From: an uncultured delta proteobacterium | Lineage (GTDB): Bacteria > Desulfobacterota > Binatia > Binatales > Binataceae | DNA: 64,000 bases | NCBI GenBank assembly: GCA_963783145.1 | Contig: CAWAMM010000001.1 | Location: forward strand, 547,347 to 611,346 | Reading direction: 5' to 3' | Shown: positions 404 through 58,170 of the stretch, one piece after another | Position numbering within the stretch: the stretch's first letter is position 1 | How the letters are laid out: each line of letters begins with the position of its first letter | Notes under the pieces: generated by a model | Databases searched by the model: none | What the model saw: only the letters and a program-made list of their open reading frames with translations | What the model was told of the DNA's origin: nothing | Made by a program: the position numbers and the translations under genes

Positions 404-1030
404 GTGGCCAGAAACCTGGGTCCAGTATGCCGGCTATGCCGGCGCGAGGGGCTGAAGCTCTTCCTCAAGGGCGAGCGATGCTATTCGGACAAATGCGCGA
501 TCGAGCGCCGCAACTATCCGCCCGGGGCACACGGGCAGGCGCGCACGCGTTTTTCCGAGTTCGCGATACGGTTGCGCGAGAAGCAGAAGGTCAAGCGCAT
601 CTATCGACTGCTGGAAAAGCAATTCGCGCATTACTTCGAGGTCGCAGAGCGGATGCCCGGCATCACCGGTGAAAGTCTGCTGGTGCTGCTCGAGCGCCGG
701 CTCGATAACGTCATCTATCGGCTCGGATTTGCGAGCTCGTTGTCACAGGCACGCCAGTTGGTTCGTCATGGCCATTTCGAAGTCAATGGCAAGAAAGTCA
801 CGATTCCATCGTACCTGGTAGCGGTCGGTCAGGTGGTAAGTATCACCGAAAAGAGCCGCACCAAGAAGGTCATCGTGGAGGCGCTGGAGATGGCGCAGCG
901 GCGGGGCGTGCCTCCATGGATTGCATTGGAGCGCGATCAGTTTCGTGGCTCCCTGCGCTCCTATCCGGCACGTACGGACCTGACGATGCCGATCAGCGAG
1001 AAGCTGATAGTCGAGCATTATTCAAGATAA
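404..1030 (+). CDS. rpsD: 30S ribosomal protein S4
   Basis: The 208-aa product has an N-terminal zinc-ribbon-like [18 protein letters not shown] motif and an S4 domain. It follows rpsK. Confidence 0.95.
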
Positions 1031-2784: not shown

Positions 2785-3367
2785 AGAATCCTTGGATAAC
2801 CAAATCCGCGTGGCGATGCGGCGCGATGTGTTCGAGGTACCAATTCTCCGCGGCAACCCATCGCGCCATCCATGAGGTGCTGGGCTGCGCCCGAGCCGAC
2901 ATCCGGCGCACCCGTTCATCACGCGGAGTTTCGATGAAAATCGTGACATCGATGAGCGGGCGCAACTCCGGGCGCATCGAGAATACGCCCTCGATGATCA
3001 CAATCTCGCGCGGGTGGATTTCGATCCATTCGGCGAGGCTATCGGCGGCCCAATCATAGCGCTGATAGCGGGCGGGCTTCCCGTCGCGCAGCGGCATCAG
3101 AGCTTCATCGCGAAGCCGCCGCCAATCGAAATAGTTTTCGTATGCTTGTCGGGGAGTGAGCTGCACATATTGCGCTCCTATCAGCGGGCGATAGAAGTCG
3201 TCGCACCTGACGATTGATACTCGGCCGGCGAATGCCTCGCTGACACCTTTCGCGAGGGTGGACTTTCCCGCGCCGCCACATCCATCGATGCCGACAACCA
3301 TCGGATCACTGCGACGGCGGTCATTCAATAGTGTGCATGCTGCGTGCACCGCGTCGGCAGGGGTCAT
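2783..3367 (-). CDS. P-loop nucleoside/nucleotide kinase, uridine kinase/phosphoribulokinase-like
   Basis: A Walker A motif [12 protein letters not shown] sits near the N-terminus. The overall length and pattern match the uridine-kinase family. Confidence 0.55.
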
Positions 3368-3376
3368 CGCGATGGG

Positions 3377-3655
3377 CTAGATCGATTCGGCGATCTTCGC
3401 GCGCAGGGCCATGTGCGCGCTTTTGAAGCCCGACAGGATGCCGTCCTCGAAGTTCCATCCCGAGTCGGCGATGAGGTCGGGGAAGTCATGCGGATTCCGT
3501 ATGTCTTCGGAACTGAGCCCGGGATGAATTTTGTTGGCCAATTCGAGGACCTTTTTCGCTTGAAGGTCAATTAGCTCGAGCATCAGCTGATCGACTGCTC
3601 CGAGCGTCTCGCGCGTGAATGCCGCCATTTGGGAAATCCTATTCCTAACCGCCAT
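3377..3655 (-). CDS. Hypothetical small protein (92 aa)
   Basis: Codon usage is GC3-rich and the ORF is tightly spaced from the downstream kinase gene. No family was recognised. Confidence 0.35.
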   Translation of the reverse strand: MAVRNRISQMAAFTRETLGAVDQLMLELIDLQAKKVLELANKIHPGLSSEDIRNPHDFPDLIADSGWNFEDGILSGFKSAHMALRAKIAESI

Positions 3656-5358: not shown

Positions 5359-6708
5359 ATGGCGGAATTAGATCTGAAACTTGCCGAATGGGCTCTAGGC
5401 GTTGCAAAGAAAAATGGCGCGACCGCGGCCGAAGTGCTGCTCGTCAGCGGAGAGTCGCTGGCAGCTGGTGTGCGGCTCGGCGAGGTCGAGAAGCTCAAGA
5501 GCTCGCGCGAGCGGCGGCTAGGGCTGCGGGTGTTTACCGGACAATCGTCCGCGACGTCGTCGACCGCTGAGATCGAGGAAGACTCACTTAAGGAATTCAT
5601 CAAGAGTACGGTTGACCTCGCGAAGCTGACCGCGCCTGATCCATGGTCGGGGCTTCCCGACCCGTCGCTGCACCCCCAATCTTTTCCCGAGCTGGACCTC
5701 GAAGACAACCAGCATCGGATAATCGAGGCGCCGAAAGCGCTCGAGCTTGCACGCATCGCTGAAAAGGCGGCGCTCAACAGCGATCCGCGCATCAAAAATT
5801 CCGACGGCGCGGAATTCGATTCCGGCACCTATCGGGTGATTTTCGCCAACAGCCAGGGTTTTGCGGGTGAGTATTCGGGGACCAACTATCATCTCGGCGT
5901 TGCGCCGATCGCGCAGGACGACAGTGGGATGCAGACTGGCTACTGGTACACCTCGAACCGGATGTATCAGAAGCTCGATGATCCGGCGATGGTGGGAAAG
6001 AAATCGGCGGAGCGTGCGTTACGAAAACTCGGCGCCCGAAAAATCAAGACCACTCGGGTTCCGATCGTCTTCGATCCGCAGATGGCGGCGGGCCTGGTTC
6101 ATACCATGGCGAGTGCGGCGTCCGGACCGTCGCTCTACAAGGGCGCTTCCTTTCTTGTAGGGAAACTTAGCCAAAAAGTAGCATCAGCGAATGTTACTCT
6201 GGTCGATGACGCGCGGATGCTCGGCGGACCCGGCTCGAAGCCTTTCGACGGCGAAGGACTGGCGACCAATCGCAAGAATCTCGTCGAGAAGGGCGAGCTT
6301 AAAACCTACCTGCTGGACAGCTATTCGGCGCGTAAGCTGAACCTTGCGCCGACCGGCAATGCCTCGCGCTCGGTGGGTTCGCCACCGGGAGTTAGCACCA
6401 CAAACTTCTACCTGGTGCCGGGCAACTACACGCTCGAGGAGATCATCGGTTCAGTCAAACAAGGTTTGTACCTCACCGAGCAGATCGGCTTCGGAGTGAA
6501 CATGGTGACCGGCGACTACTCGCGCGGCGCAGGTGGGATCTGGATCGAAAATGGCGAACTGACCTATCCCGTGCAGGAGGTGACCATCGCGGGCAACCTC
6601 AAAGAGATGTTCAATTCGATCGAGATGATCGGGAGTGACCTGGTGTGGCGCTCCTCGACGGTATCGCCCACCATCAAGATCGCCGAGATGACCATCGCCG
6701 GAGCATAG
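5359..6708 (+). CDS. pmbA: Metalloprotease PmbA/TldE
   Basis: The 449-aa product belongs to the TldD/PmbA family but lacks the HExxH motif, as PmbA does. It is adjacent to tldD. Confidence 0.85.
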   Translation: MAELDLKLAEWALGVAKKNGATAAEVLLVSGESLAAGVRLGEVEKLKSSRERRLGLRVFTGQSSATSSTAEIEEDSLKEFIKSTVDLAKLTAPDPWSGLPDPSLHPQSFPELDLEDNQHRIIEAPKALELARIAEKAALNSDPRIKNSDGAEFDSGTYRVIFANSQGFAGEYSGTNYHLGVAPIAQDDSGMQTGYWYTSNRMYQKLDDPAMVGKKSAERALRKLGARKIKTTRVPIVFDPQMAAGLVHTMASAASGPSLYKGASFLVGKLSQKVASANVTLVDDARMLGGPGSKPFDGEGLATNRKNLVEKGELKTYLLDSYSARKLNLAPTGNASRSVGSPPGVSTTNFYLVPGNYTLEEIIGSVKQGLYLTEQIGFGVNMVTGDYSRGAGGIWIENGELTYPVQEVTIAGNLKEMFNSIEMIGSDLVWRSSTVSPTIKIAEMTIAGA

Positions 6709-21708: not shown

Positions 21709-22428
21709 ATGAAAACCGAAACCATCGAATATAAGGATGGCGATGTAACCCTTCGTGGGTACCTCGCCTACGATGAAACCAAAACCGGTAAGCGCCCGGG
21801 AATTCTCGTCATGCCCGAAGCGTTGGGGCTGGGCAAGCATGCCAAGGAACGCGCCGAGCGCCTCGCGCAGCTCGGGTATGTCGCCCTCGCTGGCGATCCC
21901 TACGGCAACGGGCTCGAGCTAGCCACCGTTCAGGAGGCAATCAAGCTTGCGACGGACTTGTTCGCCGATACCGCCAAGGCGCGCATGCGAGTGCGCGTGG
22001 CGCTCGACAAACTTGCGTCGTTACCGCAGGTCGACCCGGCGCGGTTGGCGGAAATTGGTTTTTGCATGGGCGGCACCTTCGGCCTCGAGCTCGCACGCGA
22101 TGGTGCGCCGCTCAAAGGTGTGGTCACCTTCCATTCGGGATTGCAGACCCAGCGTCCGGCGGAGCAGGGGAAGGTAAAGGCGAAGATCCTCGTCAACACC
22201 GGCGCCGACGATCCAATGGTCCCGATCGAGGCGGTCAAGGCCTTCGAGGAAGAGATGACCAAGGCGGGCGCGGACTGGGAAGTCATCAGCTACAGCAGGA
22301 CCAAACACAGCTTCACCAATGTCGATGCGGCCAGCGCCGGGATGCCGGCCGCGCTCGAATATAACCGGCAGACCGACCAGCGCTCGTGGAAAGCGATGGT
22401 CAATTTCTTCGAGGAAATTTTCGCGTAG
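21709..22428 (+). CDS. Dienelactone hydrolase family protein
   Basis: The 239-aa product carries the DLH nucleophile motif GFCMGG. Confidence 0.8.
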   Translation: MKTETIEYKDGDVTLRGYLAYDETKTGKRPGILVMPEALGLGKHAKERAERLAQLGYVALAGDPYGNGLELATVQEAIKLATDLFADTAKARMRVRVALDKLASLPQVDPARLAEIGFCMGGTFGLELARDGAPLKGVVTFHSGLQTQRPAEQGKVKAKILVNTGADDPMVPIEAVKAFEEEMTKAGADWEVISYSRTKHSFTNVDAASAGMPAALEYNRQTDQRSWKAMVNFFEEIFA

Positions 22429-22484
22429 ACCTAACCCCTAACCCCTTCCCGTATGGGAAGCGGGACAGAAAGACGGAGAAAAAC

Positions 22485-22904
22485 ATGGCAGATCCGATGG
22501 CCGAGTTTAACAAGAAGGTGATCGACGAATTTCGCAGCAGCGGCGGCAAGGTCGCCGGTCAGTTCGCCGGCGCGCCGATGATCATCATCACCCACACCGG
22601 CGCTAAGAGCGGTAAGACCTACACCTCGCCGCTGGTCTATAGCAAAGACGGCGACCGCTGCGTCATCATCGCGTCGAAGGCGGGCGCGCCGAAGAATCCG
22701 AGCTGGTACCACAACCTCGTCGCGCACCCCGAGGTGACCGTCGAAATCGGCACCGAGAAGTTCAAGGCCAAGGCCACCGAAGTCAAAGGCGCCGAACGCG
22801 ATCGTCTGTTCGAGGCGCAGGCGAAGATGATGCCGCAATTCAACGAGTACGCGAAGAAGACCGCGCGTAAGATTCCGGTCCTCGTGCTGGAGCGCGTGAA
22901 GTAG
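22485..22904 (+). CDS. Deazaflavin (F420)-dependent nitroreductase-family oxidoreductase (DUF385)
   Basis: MADPMAEFNKKVIDEFRSSGGKV...PMIIITHTGAKSGKTYTSPL...NPSWYHNL matches the DUF385/Ddn-like pattern. Confidence 0.7.
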   Translation: MADPMAEFNKKVIDEFRSSGGKVAGQFAGAPMIIITHTGAKSGKTYTSPLVYSKDGDRCVIIASKAGAPKNPSWYHNLVAHPEVTVEIGTEKFKAKATEVKGAERDRLFEAQAKMMPQFNEYAKKTARKIPVLVLERVK

Positions 22905-22917
22905 ACTTTCGATTCGA

Positions 22918-22949
22918 GTGCCGCGCTTCTTCGATATCGAGGAGCGCGG
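22918..22949 (+). terminator. Long hairpin after the nitroreductase gene (no U-tract)
   Basis: GCCGCGCTTCTTCGATATCGAGGAGCGCGGC forms a near-perfect stem of about 14 bp. A second hairpin, CCTCGCCCgatGGGCGAGG, lies at 22969-22987. Confidence 0.3.
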
Positions 22950-23018
22950 CAATCCTTAGTAATGCTAACCCTCGCCCGATGGGCGAGGTCGGTCCCGAGT
23001 CCGCGAGGGACCTGGAGT

Positions 23019-23522
23019 GGGACCTTATTCAGCGCGTCCTCGCGCGACTATGGAATTCTGGTTCCGTGTCTAACTCACTTTCGTTCCCAGGAACTCAAAC
23101 ACTCTCGTTGGGAGCATGAACGACGAAGCCATTACGCGGATCCCTGGCAGCCAAGGCCCGTATCGCTTTTTTTAGTTTCACCTTTTCTGGATAGATCGCA
23201 CGTCTACTCAAGATGCGTCTTCCGGGATAGCGGTTGTGCGGAATAATCACATAGCGATGCGAGCTACGATGCCGAAGTATGTAGGCCGTGTCTTTTTCGG
23301 AGAACTCGCTCGAGCGGCATCGCCATTTCGTTCACCTTTCAACGCGCCGAGGAACGAATCTGTGTCGTTGTCCGCCCAAGCAGTAATTGCTTCCCTTCGA
23401 CGCTCGATCCCGGTCAATATTGAGGCTAACTGAGCGTTGATTGAGTGTAAAGAAAATGCTCGCACGTCTAAGAGTAGAAACAGAATTCCCGAATCGCGCG
23501 AGGACGCGCTGAAAAAGGTCCC
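23019..23522. mobile_element. MITE-like non-autonomous element bounded by ~44-nt imperfect terminal inverted repeats
   Basis: The left end is GGGACCTTATTCAGCGCGTCCTCGCGCGACTATGGAATTCTGGTT (23019-23063). The right end is AACAGAATTCCCGAATCGCGCGAGGACGCGCTGAAAAAGGTCCC (23479-23522), its reverse complement with a few mismatches. The interior of about 415 bp has no credible ORF. Confidence 0.4.
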
Positions 23523-23590
23523 TCTCCGGATTGCTCGCTTCGCTCGCAACCGTCCTCCCCCATCGGGGGAGTGAAAATCGCTCGCTGCCT

Positions 23591-24835
23591 CTACGCGATT
23601 TGTTCGGTACGACGCCGCAGCAACAAATCGACGTCGAACTTGAACATCCTCGCGGCGTTGCGGCCGAGGATTTTCGCGCGCGACTCTTCCTTCAACGCGC
23701 CCATCTCGCGCTCGATCGCTTCCGCCGAGTGTGGCCACGTTCCCTCGGCATGCGGGTAGTCGTTAGCCCACATGAAATTGTCGACCAGGTTATAAGCCTC
23801 CGCGAGCATCAGGCCCGGGCGGTCTTCCTGGAAAGTCGCGGCGCCATTGCCGCGGAAATATTCGCTGGGCAGCTTCTTGAGCCTGGGATACGCCCATAGA
23901 TGATGCTTGCGGGCGGCCTCATCCATCGCATCGAGCGCCCATGGCACCCATCCGATTCCGCTTTCGACCGCGGCGAATTTGACATTCGGAAATCGCTCGA
24001 GCACGCCCGATCCGCATAGGCTCGCAACCGGCTCGATAGTCGGCGAAAGCGAATGCGCGACATAGTTGATGATCGCGCCGCCTTCCTTGCGCGCCGCGCG
24101 TGGATCGCGTCCGGTCGAGACGTGGAAAGTAACTGGCAAATCGACCTCCTCGATAACAGCCCACATCGGATCGTAATCCGCCAAATTGTAGTTGGTGTCG
24201 CGCGAGTCATGACCGCCAAACACCGGCTTGCACGGCAGGGTGAGGAATCGAAAGCCGATTTTCGCGACCCGCCTAATCTCTTCAATCGCGGACGCTACGT
24301 CCGACGTCATGATGGCCGCCGCCGGTGACATGAAGTCGTTGTACTTGCCGTACATCTCCCACGCGAAGTCGTTCCACACCTTGCACTGCGCCATCCCGAA
24401 TCCAGGATCGCGGGTAGCAAACATCATGAGGCCCTTGTTGGGGAAGATGATTTCCGCATCGATGCCGTCGCGAATATGGTCCTTGATGCGTTCGACGGGA
24501 TCCGCGCCGGCGTTCCCACGCAAACGATCCTCGCTGTTCTCGCGCGGCACGTCGGCGATCATTCGCGCGCGCACGCGCGATCTGCCGAGGCCCTCGGCGA
24601 CGAACCATTTCTCGCCCTTCTCATCGCGCTCGACGTGGGGCAGGCGGTCGCGATATTTCGCGTCGAGGCGATCGCGCCAGAGATTGCCGGGCTCGTTGGC
24701 ATGGCAATCGGCGGAGATCATCAGGTACCGGTTGGGATCGTCGGGCCGCGCGGTGCGTTGCCATCCGTGGTGGCCGGGGGTTTCCAGCCGGTAACGATTT
24801 TTCTCATCTACCTGGACGATGTTTTCCTGACTCAT
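23591..24835 (-). CDS. Amidohydrolase-2 family metal-dependent hydrolase (ACMSD-like)
   Basis: A metal-binding HxH-type N-terminus (ISADCHANEPG) and a TIM-barrel pattern (HVSTGRD..., FMWANDYPH) are present. Confidence 0.8.
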   Translation of the reverse strand: MSQENIVQVDEKNRYRLETPGHHGWQRTARPDDPNRYLMISADCHANEPGNLWRDRLDAKYRDRLPHVERDEKGEKWFVAEGLGRSRVRARMIADVPRENSEDRLRGNAGADPVERIKDHIRDGIDAEIIFPNKGLMMFATRDPGFGMAQCKVWNDFAWEMYGKYNDFMSPAAAIMTSDVASAIEEIRRVAKIGFRFLTLPCKPVFGGHDSRDTNYNLADYDPMWAVIEEVDLPVTFHVSTGRDPRAARKEGGAIINYVAHSLSPTIEPVASLCGSGVLERFPNVKFAAVESGIGWVPWALDAMDEAARKHHLWAYPRLKKLPSEYFRGNGAATFQEDRPGLMLAEAYNLVDNFMWANDYPHAEGTWPHSAEAIEREMGALKEESRAKILGRNAARMFKFDVDLLLRRRTEQIA

Positions 24836-24991
24836 CTCATCGATTCCTCGCCACATCTGTACTGCGCGTTGAAAAAATCGTCAATTGACGGTTTGGTAGG
24901 TAAACGGCGCGTTCGACTTTTTGCTCGCAGATGTGCCACATCAATTGCATGACCCGGCCGCGAAAAGCGCGGCCAAAATCCGAGGTGCGAG

Positions 24992-39869: not shown

Positions 39870-39933
39870 GAAGGCTCCCGTTCCTTGTTCCCTCTCCTGG
39901 AGGGAGAGGGTGGCGCTACTGCGCCGGGTGAGG

Positions 39934-56868: not shown

Positions 56869-57945
56869 TCAATCGCTGTCTTGGTCAAAGCCGGGTGGCA
56901 ATTGCGCCTCCCTGGCGTTCGGTTTCCGGCTCTTAAGCCTCGCCAATAGAGACGGAACGCTGGCGGTCAAGTCGTTCGGCAGGGTGCGCAAGGCGGAGTC
57001 GTCGAACGAAAGATTCAGGTACTCGATTGCCAACTGCGCGACCGCCTCGCCCTGACGAAAGTCTCGCTTGCGTTTCATCGGGTTGCGGGTGGGTTGCAGC
57101 GACAACCAAATTTTGTGCAGTGCGAAGACTCGCGGATCAGGAACCACGAAGCGGGTCGGGAATCCATTCTCGGCGATCACGATCTGGGAAAATTTCGGAC
57201 CCGCAATAAGCCAGTCGAGGCCGGTTATTTGTTCAGCGATAAGGTCTTTGCCCATTCCGATGCTTGGGAGAGCGCTTTTGCCCGGTTGTATCGAGATGGG
57301 CCGCAACAATTCGACCATGAAACCCTTTGCGTTGACCGCTCGGAAACTGCGTTCACGCGCCGGCGCGAAGCTCTTGTCGACAGTCTTTAAGAGACCGAGA
57401 AGGCCGAGTTTTCTGGTTCGAACCGCGATCTCCAGCGGTGAATTTGGATCGATCAGTGTATCGAGGTCATCGGTCTGAAGCAGTCCGGCTTTGAACTGCA
57501 CACCCGCCGCCGCTTCGTACGCATACAGCGAGTGGCTTCCCAGTAGTATCAGATGGGTTCCGAGCAGACCGGCGCTGTCGAGGACTCTGGCGATATCCAC
57601 TGAAATCCTTGGTACTCGATTGACCTCGGCGGCGACGCAGAATTTTGCTCTTCGCTGGAGCTCCGATCGAACCGAGGCAGAGCGGGCGCGAAGGGCTTTT
57701 TTTCGGGCGGTAAATTCGCGAAAGAGAACTTCGGTTTGTGGCGAGCGCGGACCGAGCGACCGGATGTGTCCTTCCCGATCCAGACTGCGCACCAGGTAGT
57801 CGCGGCCTTTTACGGTTTTCCAGAACATGCCGCCGGCGATCTCGCGGGTTTCCTTGGCGAATTCGAGGAAATGGTCATAGAGCTGAATCGCGTCTGCGGC
57901 GAGCCGTCGTTGCTCGGCGGTTAGTTCTCGCCATTGCGAAGCCAT
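56869..57945 (-). CDS. Nucleotidyltransferase-fold protein (Pol-beta superfamily GS...DxD), function unknown
   Basis: LILLGSHSLYAYEAAAGVQFKAGLLQTDDLDTLID carries the hG[GS]...DhD signature. An ATG at 57945 is preceded by an AGGAAA Shine-Dalgarno sequence. From memory it may resemble the GSU2403-type NTase family; this needs an HMM search. Confidence 0.5.
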   Translation of the reverse strand: MASQWRELTAEQRRLAADAIQLYDHFLEFAKETREIAGGMFWKTVKGRDYLVRSLDREGHIRSLGPRSPQTEVLFREFTARKKALRARSASVRSELQRRAKFCVAAEVNRVPRISVDIARVLDSAGLLGTHLILLGSHSLYAYEAAAGVQFKAGLLQTDDLDTLIDPNSPLEIAVRTRKLGLLGLLKTVDKSFAPARERSFRAVNAKGFMVELLRPISIQPGKSALPSIGMGKDLIAEQITGLDWLIAGPKFSQIVIAENGFPTRFVVPDPRVFALHKIWLSLQPTRNPMKRKRDFRQGEAVAQLAIEYLNLSFDDSALRTLPNDLTASVPSLLARLKSRKPNAREAQLPPGFDQDSD

Positions 57946-57950
57946 GGTTA

Positions 57951-58170
57951 GTTTCCTATCAGATGACTTACAATGAGACAATGATAGGAAACCTAGGAGG
58001 AAATTACTTATCGCGCGAATTATTCGCGTGATTATCCTTGATTTACACCATTTCCGATAAGCGCGGTCGGTTTCCTATCAAGCAATTGATCCGAAGAAAT
58101 GATAGGAAACAAGACCCATTACGAATTTTTTTCCTATATTTTTGCGCAATTAGAGTCTTTTATAGGAAAA
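57951..58170. repeat. Array of three inverted-repeat units (GTTTCCTATCA - ~20 nt - TGATAGGAAAC) in an AT-rich divergent promoter region
   Basis: Unit 1 is 57951-57961 with 57982-57992. Unit 2 is 58070-58080 with 58100-58110, both half-sites perfect. Unit 3 is the degenerate TTTCCTATA 58130-58138 with TATAGGAAAA 58161-58170. Local GC is about 38% against about 64% overall. Confidence 0.5.

What the first reader, a model, noticed from the sequence alone, without database searches (positions are those of the whole stretch)
22905..23590. ~500-bp non-coding MITE-like element with 44-nt imperfect terminal inverted repeats between convergent genes
**Seen in sequence**
- The left TIR is GGGACCTTATTCAGCGCGTCCTCGCGCGACTATGGAATTCTGGTT (23019-23063).
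- The right TIR is AACAGAATTCCCGAATCGCGCGAGGACGCGCTGAAAAAGGTCCC (23479-23522), its reverse complement with about 5 mismatches or indels.
- The interior of about 415 bp has lower GC and only short ORFs in all frames. The 'proteins' reported at 22962..23246, 23236..23433 and 23247..23738 merely echo each other across the TIRs (SASSRD-Y/S-GIL).
- Two strong GC hairpins sit just outside each end (22969-22987 and about 23549-23567).
- No transposase is present.

**Inference**
- This is a miniature inverted-repeat transposable element, or a long structured ncRNA, inserted in the 3' intergenic space between the DUF385 nitroreductase and amidohydrolase genes.
Basis: seen in the sequence. Interest (0 to 1): 0.5.

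Follow-up and report, generated by a model that had tools for sequence, protein, structure and literature searches.

The report
Repeat doublet enclosing a dead gene
The "inverted repeats" are two copies of a ~100-base, three-hairpin repeat that is scattered through Candidatus Binataceae genomes. Here they bracket the decayed remains of a small gene otherwise found on mobile elements, so this copy is a fossil, but the repeat family and its link to DUF559 endonuclease genes appear undescribed.

Summary
The inverted repeat is real but under-called. The arms are about 100-115 nt (22963-23066 on +, 23475-23579 on -), not 44 nt, and the "outside" GC hairpins are part of the arms.

Each arm is a copy of a structured repeat unit with three hairpins supported by compensatory changes. 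I found the unit only in Candidatus Binataceae genomes and related metagenome contigs. There it normally forms compact convergent doublets of two subtypes (A+B, spacer 11-91 nt), sits at unrelated intergenic sites, forms arrays, and surrounds DUF559 (Vsr-like) endonuclease genes in 7 of 7 loci examined.

In the window the two units are 409 nt apart. That interior is not a structured RNA (fold z about 0). It is a pseudogene on the minus strand (23070-23326) of a ~112-aa protein of unknown function whose intact relatives sit next to relaxase, integrase and toxin-antitoxin genes. It carries an N-terminal frameshift, a ~24-codon deletion and a +1 frameshift.

An intact copy lies next to a type-A unit in the same orientation on metagenome contig L085. 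I found no target-site duplication, no transposase and no Rfam match. A syntenic relative (L074) lacks the element.

Verdict: a decayed, cargo-carrying copy of a REPIN/BIME-like repeat, not a classical MITE and not a long ncRNA.

The parts
22485..22904 (+).
   Evidence: Pfam PF04075, E=5e-40. The identical protein occurs on 18 contigs of the same population.
22916..22954 (+). Hairpin just downstream of the left gene (TGCCGCGCT...AGCGCGGCA). It is not part of the repeat and is probably the gene's own terminator-like stem.
   Evidence: Inverted repeat I6, 15-nt arms, 87% complementary. It is conserved at the syntenic site of L074, which lacks the element.
22963..23066 (+). Left repeat unit, subtype A. 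H1 pairs 22970-22977 with 22981-22988. H2 pairs 22991-22996 with 23007-23012. H4 pairs 23032-23036 with 23041-23045. The tail is GACTATGGAATTCTGG.
   Evidence: cmsearch 121 bits and nhmmer E=5e-29. It is 97.8% identical to a copy in L004 and 92-94.5% identical to copies in three other genomes. Subtype call.
23067..23474 (.). Interior between the inner (tail) ends of the two units. GC is 50.9%, there is no codon-position GC signal, and it folds no better than shuffled sequence.
   Evidence: No blastn or tblastn match in the 13 family loci or elsewhere in the window.
23070..23326 (-). Pseudogene of a ~112-aa protein family with no annotation. The ATG is at 23326-23324, preceded by AAAGGTGA. There is a frameshift or short deletion at about 23309-23313, a ~24-codon internal deletion at about 23197-23212, a +1 insertion at about 23103-23104, and the original TAG stop is at 23072-23070, four bases from the left unit.
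   Evidence: phmmer against 1.84 billion proteins: P0241 E=2e-14, 59% identity; 9 hits. Protein alignment A3. Six-frame translation and nucleotide alignment to the intact copy in L085. DNA matches to L083 (74%), L085 (81%) and L084 (71%).
23327..23474 (-). Former upstream region of the pseudogene, including the ribosome-binding site. No homologue was found.
   Evidence: No sigma-70-like promoter by consensus scan.
23475..23579 (-). Right repeat unit, an A/B hybrid with an A-type H4 (GCGCG-TCCT-CGCGC) and a near-B tail (GATTCGGGAATTC). H1 pairs 23555-23561 with 23565-23571. It is the more diverged arm, at most 84% identical to any other copy.
   Evidence: cmsearch 102 bits and nhmmer E=4e-26.. 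A similar hybrid occurs at L075 3004-3100.
23591..24856 (-). Right flanking gene, amidohydrolase (Amidohydro_2). Its stop codon lies about 12 nt from the outer end of the right unit.
   Evidence: Pfam PF04909, E=1.3e-27. The closest named homologues are from Candidatus Binataceae.

Best explanation
**Shown**
- The intergenic region holds two inverted copies of a ~100-115-nt repeat unit with three hairpins kept by compensatory substitutions. I found this unit only in Candidatus Binataceae genomes and related metagenome contigs.
- Elsewhere the unit forms compact convergent doublets, always one subtype-A plus one subtype-B unit, inner tails facing, spacer 11-91 nt. These sit at unrelated intergenic sites, in arrays, and around DUF559 endonuclease genes.
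- In the window the two units are separated by a 409-nt low-GC segment. That segment is a decayed gene, plus its upstream region, for a ~112-aa protein of unknown function.
- Intact relatives of that gene lie beside relaxase/coupling-protein genes, integrases and toxin-antitoxin pairs.
- An intact close relative lies next to a type-A unit in the same relative orientation, but in a different neighbourhood, on contig L085.

**Inferred**
- The window carries a fossil of a doublet with cargo, that is unit - small gene - unit. Either a doublet acquired the gene in its variable centre, or the composite moved as a block.
- The copy is now inert. The gene is broken in three places and the same lesions are fixed in the whole sampled population.
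- The units are non-autonomous and are copied in trans. The best candidate is the DUF559 (Vsr-like PD-(D/E)xK) endonuclease that they consistently surround, acting through break-and-repair copying in the manner of a homing endonuclease. I hold this last step at about 0.3.
- The hairpins may incidentally act as transcript 3' end structures for the two convergent genes.
For: **Extent of the arms**
-.

**The unit is a repeat family**
- The 20-mer scan of species-representative genomes gave 13 loci in 5 Binataceae-type MAGs with full-length units.
- Further units turned up with no 20-mer ascertainment, through DUF559 homologues and through the small gene.

**Structure of the unit**
- 35 units: 98.4% of cells paired against 88.6% in shuffles and 26-60% when partners are slid.
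- 74 compensatory cells against 22.5 in shuffles.
- All four Watson-Crick pair types occur at one H1 position.

**A+B doublets**
- 11 of 11 compact doublets from the 20-mer scan are A+B. Most doublets in the DUF559-ascertained loci are too; exceptions are the A/B hybrid at L075 and partial units in L077 and L078.
- Whole doublets align end to end between loci, better in one orientation: 81.7% against 71.3%.

**The interior is a pseudogene**
-, with DNA-level matches.
- It has flat GC across codon positions and a GC content at the 1st percentile.

**Context of intact homologues**
- TrwC/TrwB and DUF433-PIN genes (L083), integrases (L082), PIN/antitoxin pairs (L106-108).

**Second instance of gene plus A unit**
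- L085 is collinear with window 23310-22969 but is followed by DUF559 instead of the F420H2-family gene.

**DUF559 association**
- L045 and L036.
- Four of four homologues chosen only by homology and contig length have doublets within about 75 nt.
- L085 adds another.
- Background density is about one doublet per 50 kb in unascertained sequence.

**Fixed in the population**
- Eight contigs that span the whole intergenic region carry the element, with at most 2 differences from the window across it.
Against: - No target-site duplication or sharp termini were found, and no clean presence/absence pair. Mobility is therefore inferred from distribution, not demonstrated.
- Only one other gene-plus-unit instance exists (L085). 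Its contig starts inside the gene, so it is unknown whether a second unit lies upstream.
- The other 26 metagenome loci of the small gene have no units.
- The DUF559 link is correlative and rests on 7 loci. Causality could run the other way, with the endonuclease gene homing into the repeat.
- I could not scan any whole genome for a RAYT or other transposase.
- Copy numbers per genome are unknown.
- The 13 family loci were ascertained through a type-A-specific 20-mer, which inflates the apparent conservation of type A. Unbiased A units are 82-92.5% identical to the window's left arm.
Confidence: 0.68

Rival explanations
1. Classical MITE. The whole ~615-bp unit is a deletion derivative of an insertion sequence, and a DDE-type transposase encoded elsewhere recognises its terminal inverted repeats and moves it as one piece.
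For: - Inverted arms with no transposase inside.
- The arm family is multi-copy.
- A related gene-plus-arm block sits in a different neighbourhood on L085.
- Metagenome assemblies break at the arms (L060, L069, L070), as they do at repeats.
Against: - No target-site duplication at this copy or at 15 other doublets.
- The interior is unique apart from L085.
- The usual form of the family has almost no interior, and its spacers vary in sequence.
- The two arms of a doublet keep their own hairpins by covariation but are not complementary to each other in H2. This points to unit-level structure rather than arm-to-arm symmetry.
- No transposase gene bounded by these arms appeared in about 40 family-containing loci. 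The gene that is bounded by them is DUF559.
Confidence: 0.12
2. The units are functional RNA elements, or host-maintained cis elements, rather than selfish DNA. Each ~100-nt unit would fold in transcripts that read into it from the neighbouring gene and act as a 3' end stabiliser, terminator or protein-binding site. Copies would be kept because they are useful.
For: - Strong compensatory covariation in three helices.
- G-U pairs outnumber A-C mismatches 14 to 3 on the aligned strand, which suggests one strand matters.
- H2 carries a conserved CGAG...CGAG motif able to form tandem G-A pairs, closed by a four-base loop.
- Doublets are always convergent, so a transcript entering from either side reads a unit in sense.
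- In the window each unit follows the 3' end of a gene.
- The left unit folds better than shuffles in sense (z = -2.7).
Against: - Hairpin covariation is equally expected for DNA hairpins recognised as single strands or cruciforms.
- The antisense of the left unit also folds well (z = -2.3), and the right unit does not stand out (z = -1.0).
- There is no T-run after the stems, and no terminator-like or promoter-like consensus at the units.
- Flanking gene orientations at other doublets are mixed.
- Arrays of 12-20 units (L026, L036) and the clustering around DUF559 genes look like selfish amplification.
- No Rfam family matches.
- This reading does not exclude mobility.
Confidence: 0.2
3. The repeat is the target, not the passenger. 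Doublets would be long-lived landmarks, and small selfish genes (the DUF559 endonuclease gene and the ~112-aa gene) insert into or beside them. The window would then show one such insertion into a doublet centre, since decayed.
For: - Doublet centres vary in length and content: 11-91 nt, and one holds another small palindromic repeat (L037).
- The small gene lies on the inner (tail) side of a type-A unit in both the window and L085.
- A short direct repeat GTCTAA borders the interior at 23068-23073 and 23464-23469.
- The Vsr/DUF559 clade includes a homing endonuclease (PMC3424549, Table 1).
Against: - A six-base direct repeat could easily arise by chance once positional freedom is allowed.
- 26 of 27 other loci of the small gene are not near any such repeat.
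- This reading does not explain how the doublets themselves reached many unrelated sites.
Confidence: 0.18
4. Chance similarity or a purely local duplication-inversion, with no wider significance.
For: Only two units occur in the 64-kb window.
Against: - Arms of about 100 nt at about 80% identity, with compensatory changes between them.
- The same unit occurs at 92-98% identity in other genomes.
- Expected chance occurrence of the shared 20-mer is 0.06.
Confidence: 0.01

Closest known systems
REPINs (REP doublets forming hairpins) and their RAYT transposases (Bertels & Rainey 2011, PMC3116915; PMC3337134)
   Same: - Intergenic, non-autonomous repeats whose functional form is two palindrome-bearing units in inverted orientation, separated by a short spacer.
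- Singlets, doublets and arrays all occur.
- A small single gene is itself flanked by the repeats.
- Copies are similar between related species.
   Different: - The unit is about 100-115 nt with three covarying hairpins and conserved single-stranded stretches, not a 20-40-nt single palindrome with a conserved 5' tetranucleotide.
- The two halves are distinct subtypes (A and B).
- The gene surrounded by the repeats is DUF559 (a PD-(D/E)xK, Vsr-like nuclease), not a Y1/HUH RAYT.
- No RAYT was seen, though no whole genome could be searched.
- This copy carries a pseudogene in its centre.
BIMEs of Escherichia coli (mosaics of Y- and Z-type REP units in alternating orientation; own knowledge, Gilson/Bachellier work)
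   Same: - Two unit subtypes that pair in inverted orientation with variable linker motifs.
- Tandem amplification into arrays, as in L026 and L036 (period 362 nt).
   Different: - The sequences are unrelated.
- The unit is three times longer.
- It is a different phylum.
- No evidence here for IHF or gyrase binding.
Bacterial MITEs with long imperfect palindromic bodies (Correia/NEMIS, ERIC/IRU, RUP; own knowledge)
   Same: - A 100-250-bp intergenic element that is largely one long imperfect palindrome.
- No coding capacity in the compact form, and multiple copies.
- Possible effects on transcript ends.
   Different: - Those elements have defined termini and target-site duplications (for example TA) and are linked to DDE transposases.
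- Here no duplication or transposase was found.
- Here each half keeps its own internal hairpins rather than arm-to-arm complementarity.
Gene-capturing non-autonomous elements (Pack-MITE-like, or MITE pairs that flank and mobilise a DNA segment; own knowledge)
   Same: A foreign gene sits between two inverted copies of a non-autonomous repeat, and the same gene-plus-repeat block appears in two genomic neighbourhoods (the window and L085).
   Different: - Only two instances are known, and one is truncated by a contig end.
- Movement as a block is not shown.
- The cargo here is dead.

Membership tests
MITE | Short (under ~600-800 bp), no transposase of its own | tested here: met
   The element spans about 615 bp. 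Its only coding remnant is a ~112-aa-family pseudogene with no transposase signature.
MITE | Terminal inverted repeats | tested here: met
   The arms are about 100 nt at about 80% identity. Each arm is a self-folding unit, and the arms are not complementary to each other in helix H2.
MITE | Target-site duplication flanking the element | tested here: not met
   No consistent direct repeat at the outer ends of the window copy or of 15 other doublets.
MITE | Many copies of the whole element in the genome | tested here: not met
   The interior has no other copy in the window, the 13 family loci or the syntenic loci. Only L085 shares gene plus unit. Whole genomes could not be searched.
MITE | A parent insertion sequence with the same ends and a transposase | not testable with these tools
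   None was seen in the fetched loci. A genome-wide search was not possible.
REPIN / REP-RAYT system | Two REP units in inverted orientation with a short spacer | tested here: met
   Eleven compact convergent doublets with spacers of 11-91 nt. The window copy has a 409-nt spacer.
REPIN / REP-RAYT system | REP unit is a single 20-40-nt imperfect palindrome with a conserved 5' tetranucleotide (GTAG-like) | tested here: not met
   The unit is about 100-115 nt with three helices (H1, H2, H4) and no GTAG-like head.
REPIN / REP-RAYT system | An associated RAYT (Y1 transposase, PF01797) gene flanked by the repeats | tested here: not met
   The genes flanked by the repeats are DUF559, PF04480. ORFs next to the arrays in L026 and L036 have no Y1_Tnp domain. 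Absence across whole genomes was not testable.
Rfam RNA families (riboswitch or sRNA) | Covariance-model score at or above the family's gathering threshold | tested here: not met
   The best match is RAGATH-31 at 20.2 bits against a threshold of 71.8, E=1.1.
Integron gene cassette / attC | Single imperfect palindrome with R''/R' core sites (RYYYAAC / GTTRRRY) next to a cassette ORF, with an integron integrase nearby | tested here: not met
   The inner ends read GGAATTCTGGTTCC and GGAATTCTGTTTCT, with no GTTRRRY core. No integrase was seen in the ORFs within ~2 kb of the element.
DUF559 / Vsr-like endonuclease (the gene associated with the repeat family; not present in the window) | Match to PF04480 above threshold | tested here: met
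   L045 6942-7301: E=3e-44, 149.7 bits against a cut-off of 20.6. The closest solved structure is 3HRL, E=3e-29. There is no DUF559 gene in the 64-kb window.

The most novel reading that the evidence does not exclude
The structured A/B doublets form a second, RAYT-independent REPIN-like system. A DUF559 (Vsr-like PD-(D/E)xK) endonuclease would recognise the hairpin-bearing units, as cruciform or single-stranded DNA or through a transcript, and drive their copying by break repair. The doublet centre could take up and carry small cargo genes, and the window would hold a decayed example. This would give the widespread domain DUF559, whose function is unknown, its first concrete biological role.
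Probability: 0.25. Interest if true: 0.75.

Novelty: new variant of a known kind. Interest (0 to 1): 0.5.

Why it matters
The element in the window is a fossil and has little consequence on its own. It may only supply hairpins at the 3' ends of two convergent genes.

The family it belongs to deserves attention for four reasons:
- It is a long, three-helix, strongly covarying intergenic repeat in Binataceae, an uncultured soil lineage.
- It is organised as obligate two-subtype inverted doublets.
- It repeatedly surrounds DUF559 endonuclease genes. If that link is causal, REPIN-like replicators are not tied to RAYT transposases, and DUF559 acquires a testable function.
- The doublet centre can hold a gene, which suggests a route for moving small accessory genes.

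Practically, these repeats break short-read assemblies: several contigs end inside the arms.

Tried and rejected
- **Rfam scan** of 22300-24200 at E up to 10: nothing meaningful.
- **Long structured RNA in the interior:** both strands fold no better than shuffles.
- **Promoter and terminator consensus scan:** no promoter, and one weak terminator-like site, fewer than in the shuffles.
- **A ParE/RelE-like toxin remnant:** my first guess from reading the translation. It had no Pfam support, and the real homologues later superseded it.
- **Strain-level empty site:** the eight same-species contigs that span the whole intergenic region carry the full element, and three shorter contigs end inside it. 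More distant relatives L071-L073 have a different neighbour or a short gap. L074 is syntenic but has an unrelated ~240-nt spacer with only an H1-like hairpin.
- **Orthologous pairs among the 13 family loci:** none found.
- **Target-site duplications:** none.
- **Transposase or RAYT next to the arrays:** none.
- **Units on viral contigs:** none.
- **Literature** on Binatia repeats, or on DUF559 with repeats or REP elements: nothing relevant.
- **Integron attC reading:** rejected for lack of core sites and integrase.
- **My regex census of H1-like hairpins** was mis-specified and is not used.
Full report
**1. The observation**

The region lies between two convergent genes. On the left is an F420H2-dependent quinone-reductase-family gene (22485-22904, +; PF04075, E=5e-40). 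On the right is an amidohydrolase (23591-24856, -; PF04909, E=1.3e-27).

The 20-mer TTCAGCGCGTCCTCGCGCGA occurs exactly twice in the window, once on each strand, against 0.06 expected by chance.

The complementarity is much longer than 44 nt. The repeat finder gives 62 nt at 84% plus 29 nt at 83%. A pairwise alignment gives about 95-100 nt per arm at about 80%. They differ between the arms by a compensatory swap: CTCGCCCGATGGGCGAG against CTCCCCCGATGGGGGAG.

The interior has 50.9% GC, near the 1st percentile for this 60.3% GC window. The ORFs that echo each other are spurious readings through the arms.

**2. What the arms are**

A scan of one genome per species for the 20-mer returned 59 loci. 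In 13 of them the whole ~100-nt arm is present. These come from five MAGs labelled Candidatus Binataceae or "uncultured delta proteobacterium". The remaining loci are chance matches, mostly in coding sequence. The window's amidohydrolase also has its closest named relatives in Candidatus Binataceae.

An iterated nhmmer profile defines the unit at window 22966-23065 (+) and 23475-23576 (-). A covariance model places it at 22963-23066 (121 bits) and 23475-23579 (102 bits), and finds no other convincing copy in the 64 kb.

In 11 independent places the units form convergent pairs, + then -, with their tails facing. Spacers are 11, 18, 25, 28, 28, 31, 31, 34, 36, 44 and 91 nt. Two loci hold arrays of 12 and 20 units, one with a 362-nt period. 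The window's 409-nt spacing is the outlier.

**3. Structure of the unit**

An alignment of 35 non-identical units (A2) gives a consensus with three helices:
- H1: 8 bp.
- H2: 6 bp, extended by a conserved CGAG...CGAG motif that could form tandem G-A pairs and is closed by a four-base loop.
- H4: 5-8 bp.

Between the helices lie invariant single-stranded stretches (GGGACCT and a GGAAWTCTG tail).

Pair counting shows 98.4% of cells paired, against 88.6% in column shuffles and 26-60% when partners are slid. There are 74 doubly changed cells against 22.5 in shuffles. One H1 pair shows all four Watson-Crick types, and four of six H2 pairs covary. G-U pairs outnumber A-C mismatches 14 to 3 on the aligned strand.

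The two arms of a doublet usually carry different H2 sequences, each self-complementary. What is conserved is the fold of each unit, not pairing between arms. This weakens a simple TIR view.

**4. Two subtypes**

- Type A has a 5-bp H4 with a TCCT loop and the tail GAYTATGGA.
- Type B has a 7-8-bp H4 and the tail GATTCAGGA.

All 11 compact doublets are A+B. Most doublets found later without any 20-mer bias are also A+B; the exceptions are an A/B hybrid in L075 and partial units in L077 and L078. Whole doublets align end to end between loci, and better in one orientation than the other (81.7% against 71.3%). The doublet is therefore the repeated entity.

The window's left arm is a typical type A. 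It is 97.8% identical to a copy in a fragmentary Binataceae MAG (L004) and 92-94.5% identical to copies in three other genomes. It is 82-92.5% identical to A units found without ascertainment bias.

The right arm is an A/B hybrid and is at most 84% identical to any other copy. A similar hybrid exists in L075.

**5. The interior**

It has no match in the family loci or elsewhere in the window by blastn or tblastn. No reading frame shows a codon-position GC signal. It folds no better than shuffled sequence on either strand (z = +0.32 and +0.67).

However, an exhaustive phmmer search with the longest stop-free minus-strand translation (78 aa, 23098-23331) found nine proteins of 66-140 aa. The best is P0241 at E=2e-14 and 59% identity.

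The alignment (A3), the six-frame translation and a nucleotide alignment to an intact copy show a pseudogene with these features:
- ATG at 23326, preceded by AAAGGTGA.
- The conserved N-terminus MAMPL..., then a frameshifting deletion at about 23309-23313.
- The conserved ...SEFSEKDTAY.LR...YV.IPH.RYPGR block.
- An in-frame loss of about 24 codons at about 23197-23212.
- The conserved IYP.KVKLK...R.LA..DP.NGFVVH.PNE block.
- A one-base insertion at about 23103-23104.
- The original stop at 23072-23070, four bases from the tail of the left unit.

DNA-level similarity to intact genes confirms this: L083 74%, L085 81%, L084 71%.

**6. A second copy of gene plus unit**

A metagenome scan with the protein alignment returned 27 loci. 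Only one, L085, also contains the repeat.

L085 carries, in order:
- an intact copy of the gene, cut by the contig start;
- 89 nt of spacer;
- a type-A unit with its tail towards the gene, 90% identical to the window's left arm;
- a DUF559 gene;
- another doublet.

The block gene - A unit is collinear with window 23310-22969. Its outer neighbour is DUF559, not the F420H2-family gene. The same association therefore exists in two neighbourhoods. This supports either movement of a unit-gene-unit composite or repeated insertion of the gene into doublet centres.

**7. Population and relatives**

Eight contigs of the same population span the whole intergenic region (94-99.9% identical over the aligned region) and carry the full element with the same lesions. 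Three shorter ones (L060, L069, L070) end inside it. Each of the eight has at most 2 differences from the window across the 686-nt intergenic region.

In the syntenic relative L074 (about 82% nucleotide identity in both flanks), the left gene's hairpin is conserved. But only about 240 nt separate the genes. The covariance model finds no unit there, and only an H1-like hairpin remains. This is absence of the element, not a clean empty site. No target-site duplication is detectable at 16 doublets.

**8. The DUF559 link**

In L045 a 119-aa DUF559 gene (PF04480, E=3e-44; closest solved structure 3HRL) lies between two mirrored doublets (A B - gene - B A). L036 has a homologue among its array.

I then chose four homologues solely by sequence similarity and contig length. 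All four have doublets within about 25-75 nt of the gene, and L085 adds another.

Unascertained sequence has about one doublet per 50 kb: one in the 64-kb window, none in 31 kb of syntenic relatives, and one extra in the flanks of the DUF559 loci. Four of four by chance would be of order 1e-6 or less. This is my estimate from those counts.

Many close DUF559 homologues sit on contigs under 3 kb, as expected if repeats break the assemblies. Three of the samples that contain the window's population also contain the DUF559 locus L078-L080.

The arrangement parallels RAYT genes flanked by REPINs (PMC3116915, PMC3337134) but with a different enzyme class. The Vsr/DUF559 clade is known to include a homing endonuclease (PMC3424549). 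I found no paper linking DUF559 to repeats.

**9. Interpretation**

Shown:
- The arms are members of a structured, two-subtype, doublet-forming repeat family.
- The interior is a pseudogene of a gene associated with mobile elements.
- The family clusters around DUF559 genes.

Inferred:
- The window holds a decayed doublet with cargo.
- The units are copied in trans.
- DUF559 is the agent, which I hold at about 0.3.

The direction of causality is open: the endonuclease may move the repeat, or the endonuclease gene may home into it. Whether the hairpins act as RNA or as DNA is also open. It fails on target-site duplication, on what the repeated entity is, and on the parent element. The long-ncRNA alternative is not supported for the interior.

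**10. Verdict**

This particular copy is a fossil of modest interest. The family it reveals is, as far as Rfam and the searchable literature go, undescribed. It is best called a new variant of the REPIN/BIME kind. The DUF559 association is the lead worth following.

Noticed in passing
L045 6942-7301 (-); L036 ~3321-3647 (-); L075 2501-2857; L077 2501-2860; L078-L080 2501-2908; L081 2501-2953; L085 ~520-890 (-): DUF559 (Vsr-like endonuclease) genes are embedded among the repeat doublets in every locus examined, usually with the outer (H1) ends of the doublets facing the gene. There is no DUF559 gene in the 64-kb window.
   Followed up: partly
L014, L016, L019, L021, L033, L046, L050, L054 (Balneolales MAG SLDG01): A different short REP-like repeat, GCACG-TTCAGCGCGTCCTCGCGCGA-ACGGGATTCAGAGCAGCGTCCCCGCTGCCGTG, shares the exact 20-mer of the Binataceae type-A unit. 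It is otherwise not recognised by the unit model. Whether this is common origin or convergence is unknown.
   Followed up: no
window 23591-24856, compared with L064 and L067: Two population contigs are essentially identical to the window across the left gene and the whole element. They become 7-10% diverged starting at 23607-23654, just past the right unit. This is either a recombination breakpoint or an assembly chimera at the repeat boundary.
   Followed up: partly
window 39889-39910: A solo H1-like hairpin, CCCTCTCC-TGGA-GGGAGAGGG, lies between two convergent ORFs (weak covariance-model hit, 19.8 bits). A similar hairpin sits at the syntenic site of L074 (about 5465-5487). Short H1-like stems may exist as singlets.
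   Followed up: partly
outer flank of most units, e.g. L005 ~6188-6203, L036 ~2590-2620, L037 ~2684-2700: One to three tandem copies of the 5' half of H1 (...CTCGCCCGATCT...) precede the complete hairpin on the outer side of most units. This allows alternative pairings, or may record how copies are made. In the window's arms the motif is only weakly recognisable.
   Followed up: no
L037 2490-2580: The 91-nt centre of this doublet contains two copies of another small palindrome (GAAGCACAGACT...AGTCTGTGCTTC). Doublet centres can therefore take up other short elements.
   Followed up: no
L104 373-698: Another frameshifted (pseudogene) copy of the ~112-aa gene family, in a different context with no repeat units nearby.
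   Followed up: no
window 57923-58045: A 40% GC stretch was picked up as a marginal covariance-model hit (15.3 bits). It is probably chance, but the composition is unusual for this 60% GC window.
   Followed up: no
L060, L069, L070 contig ends (window 23056, 23528, 23039): Three short-read metagenome contigs of this population end inside one or other arm. These repeats fragment assemblies.
   Followed up: yes
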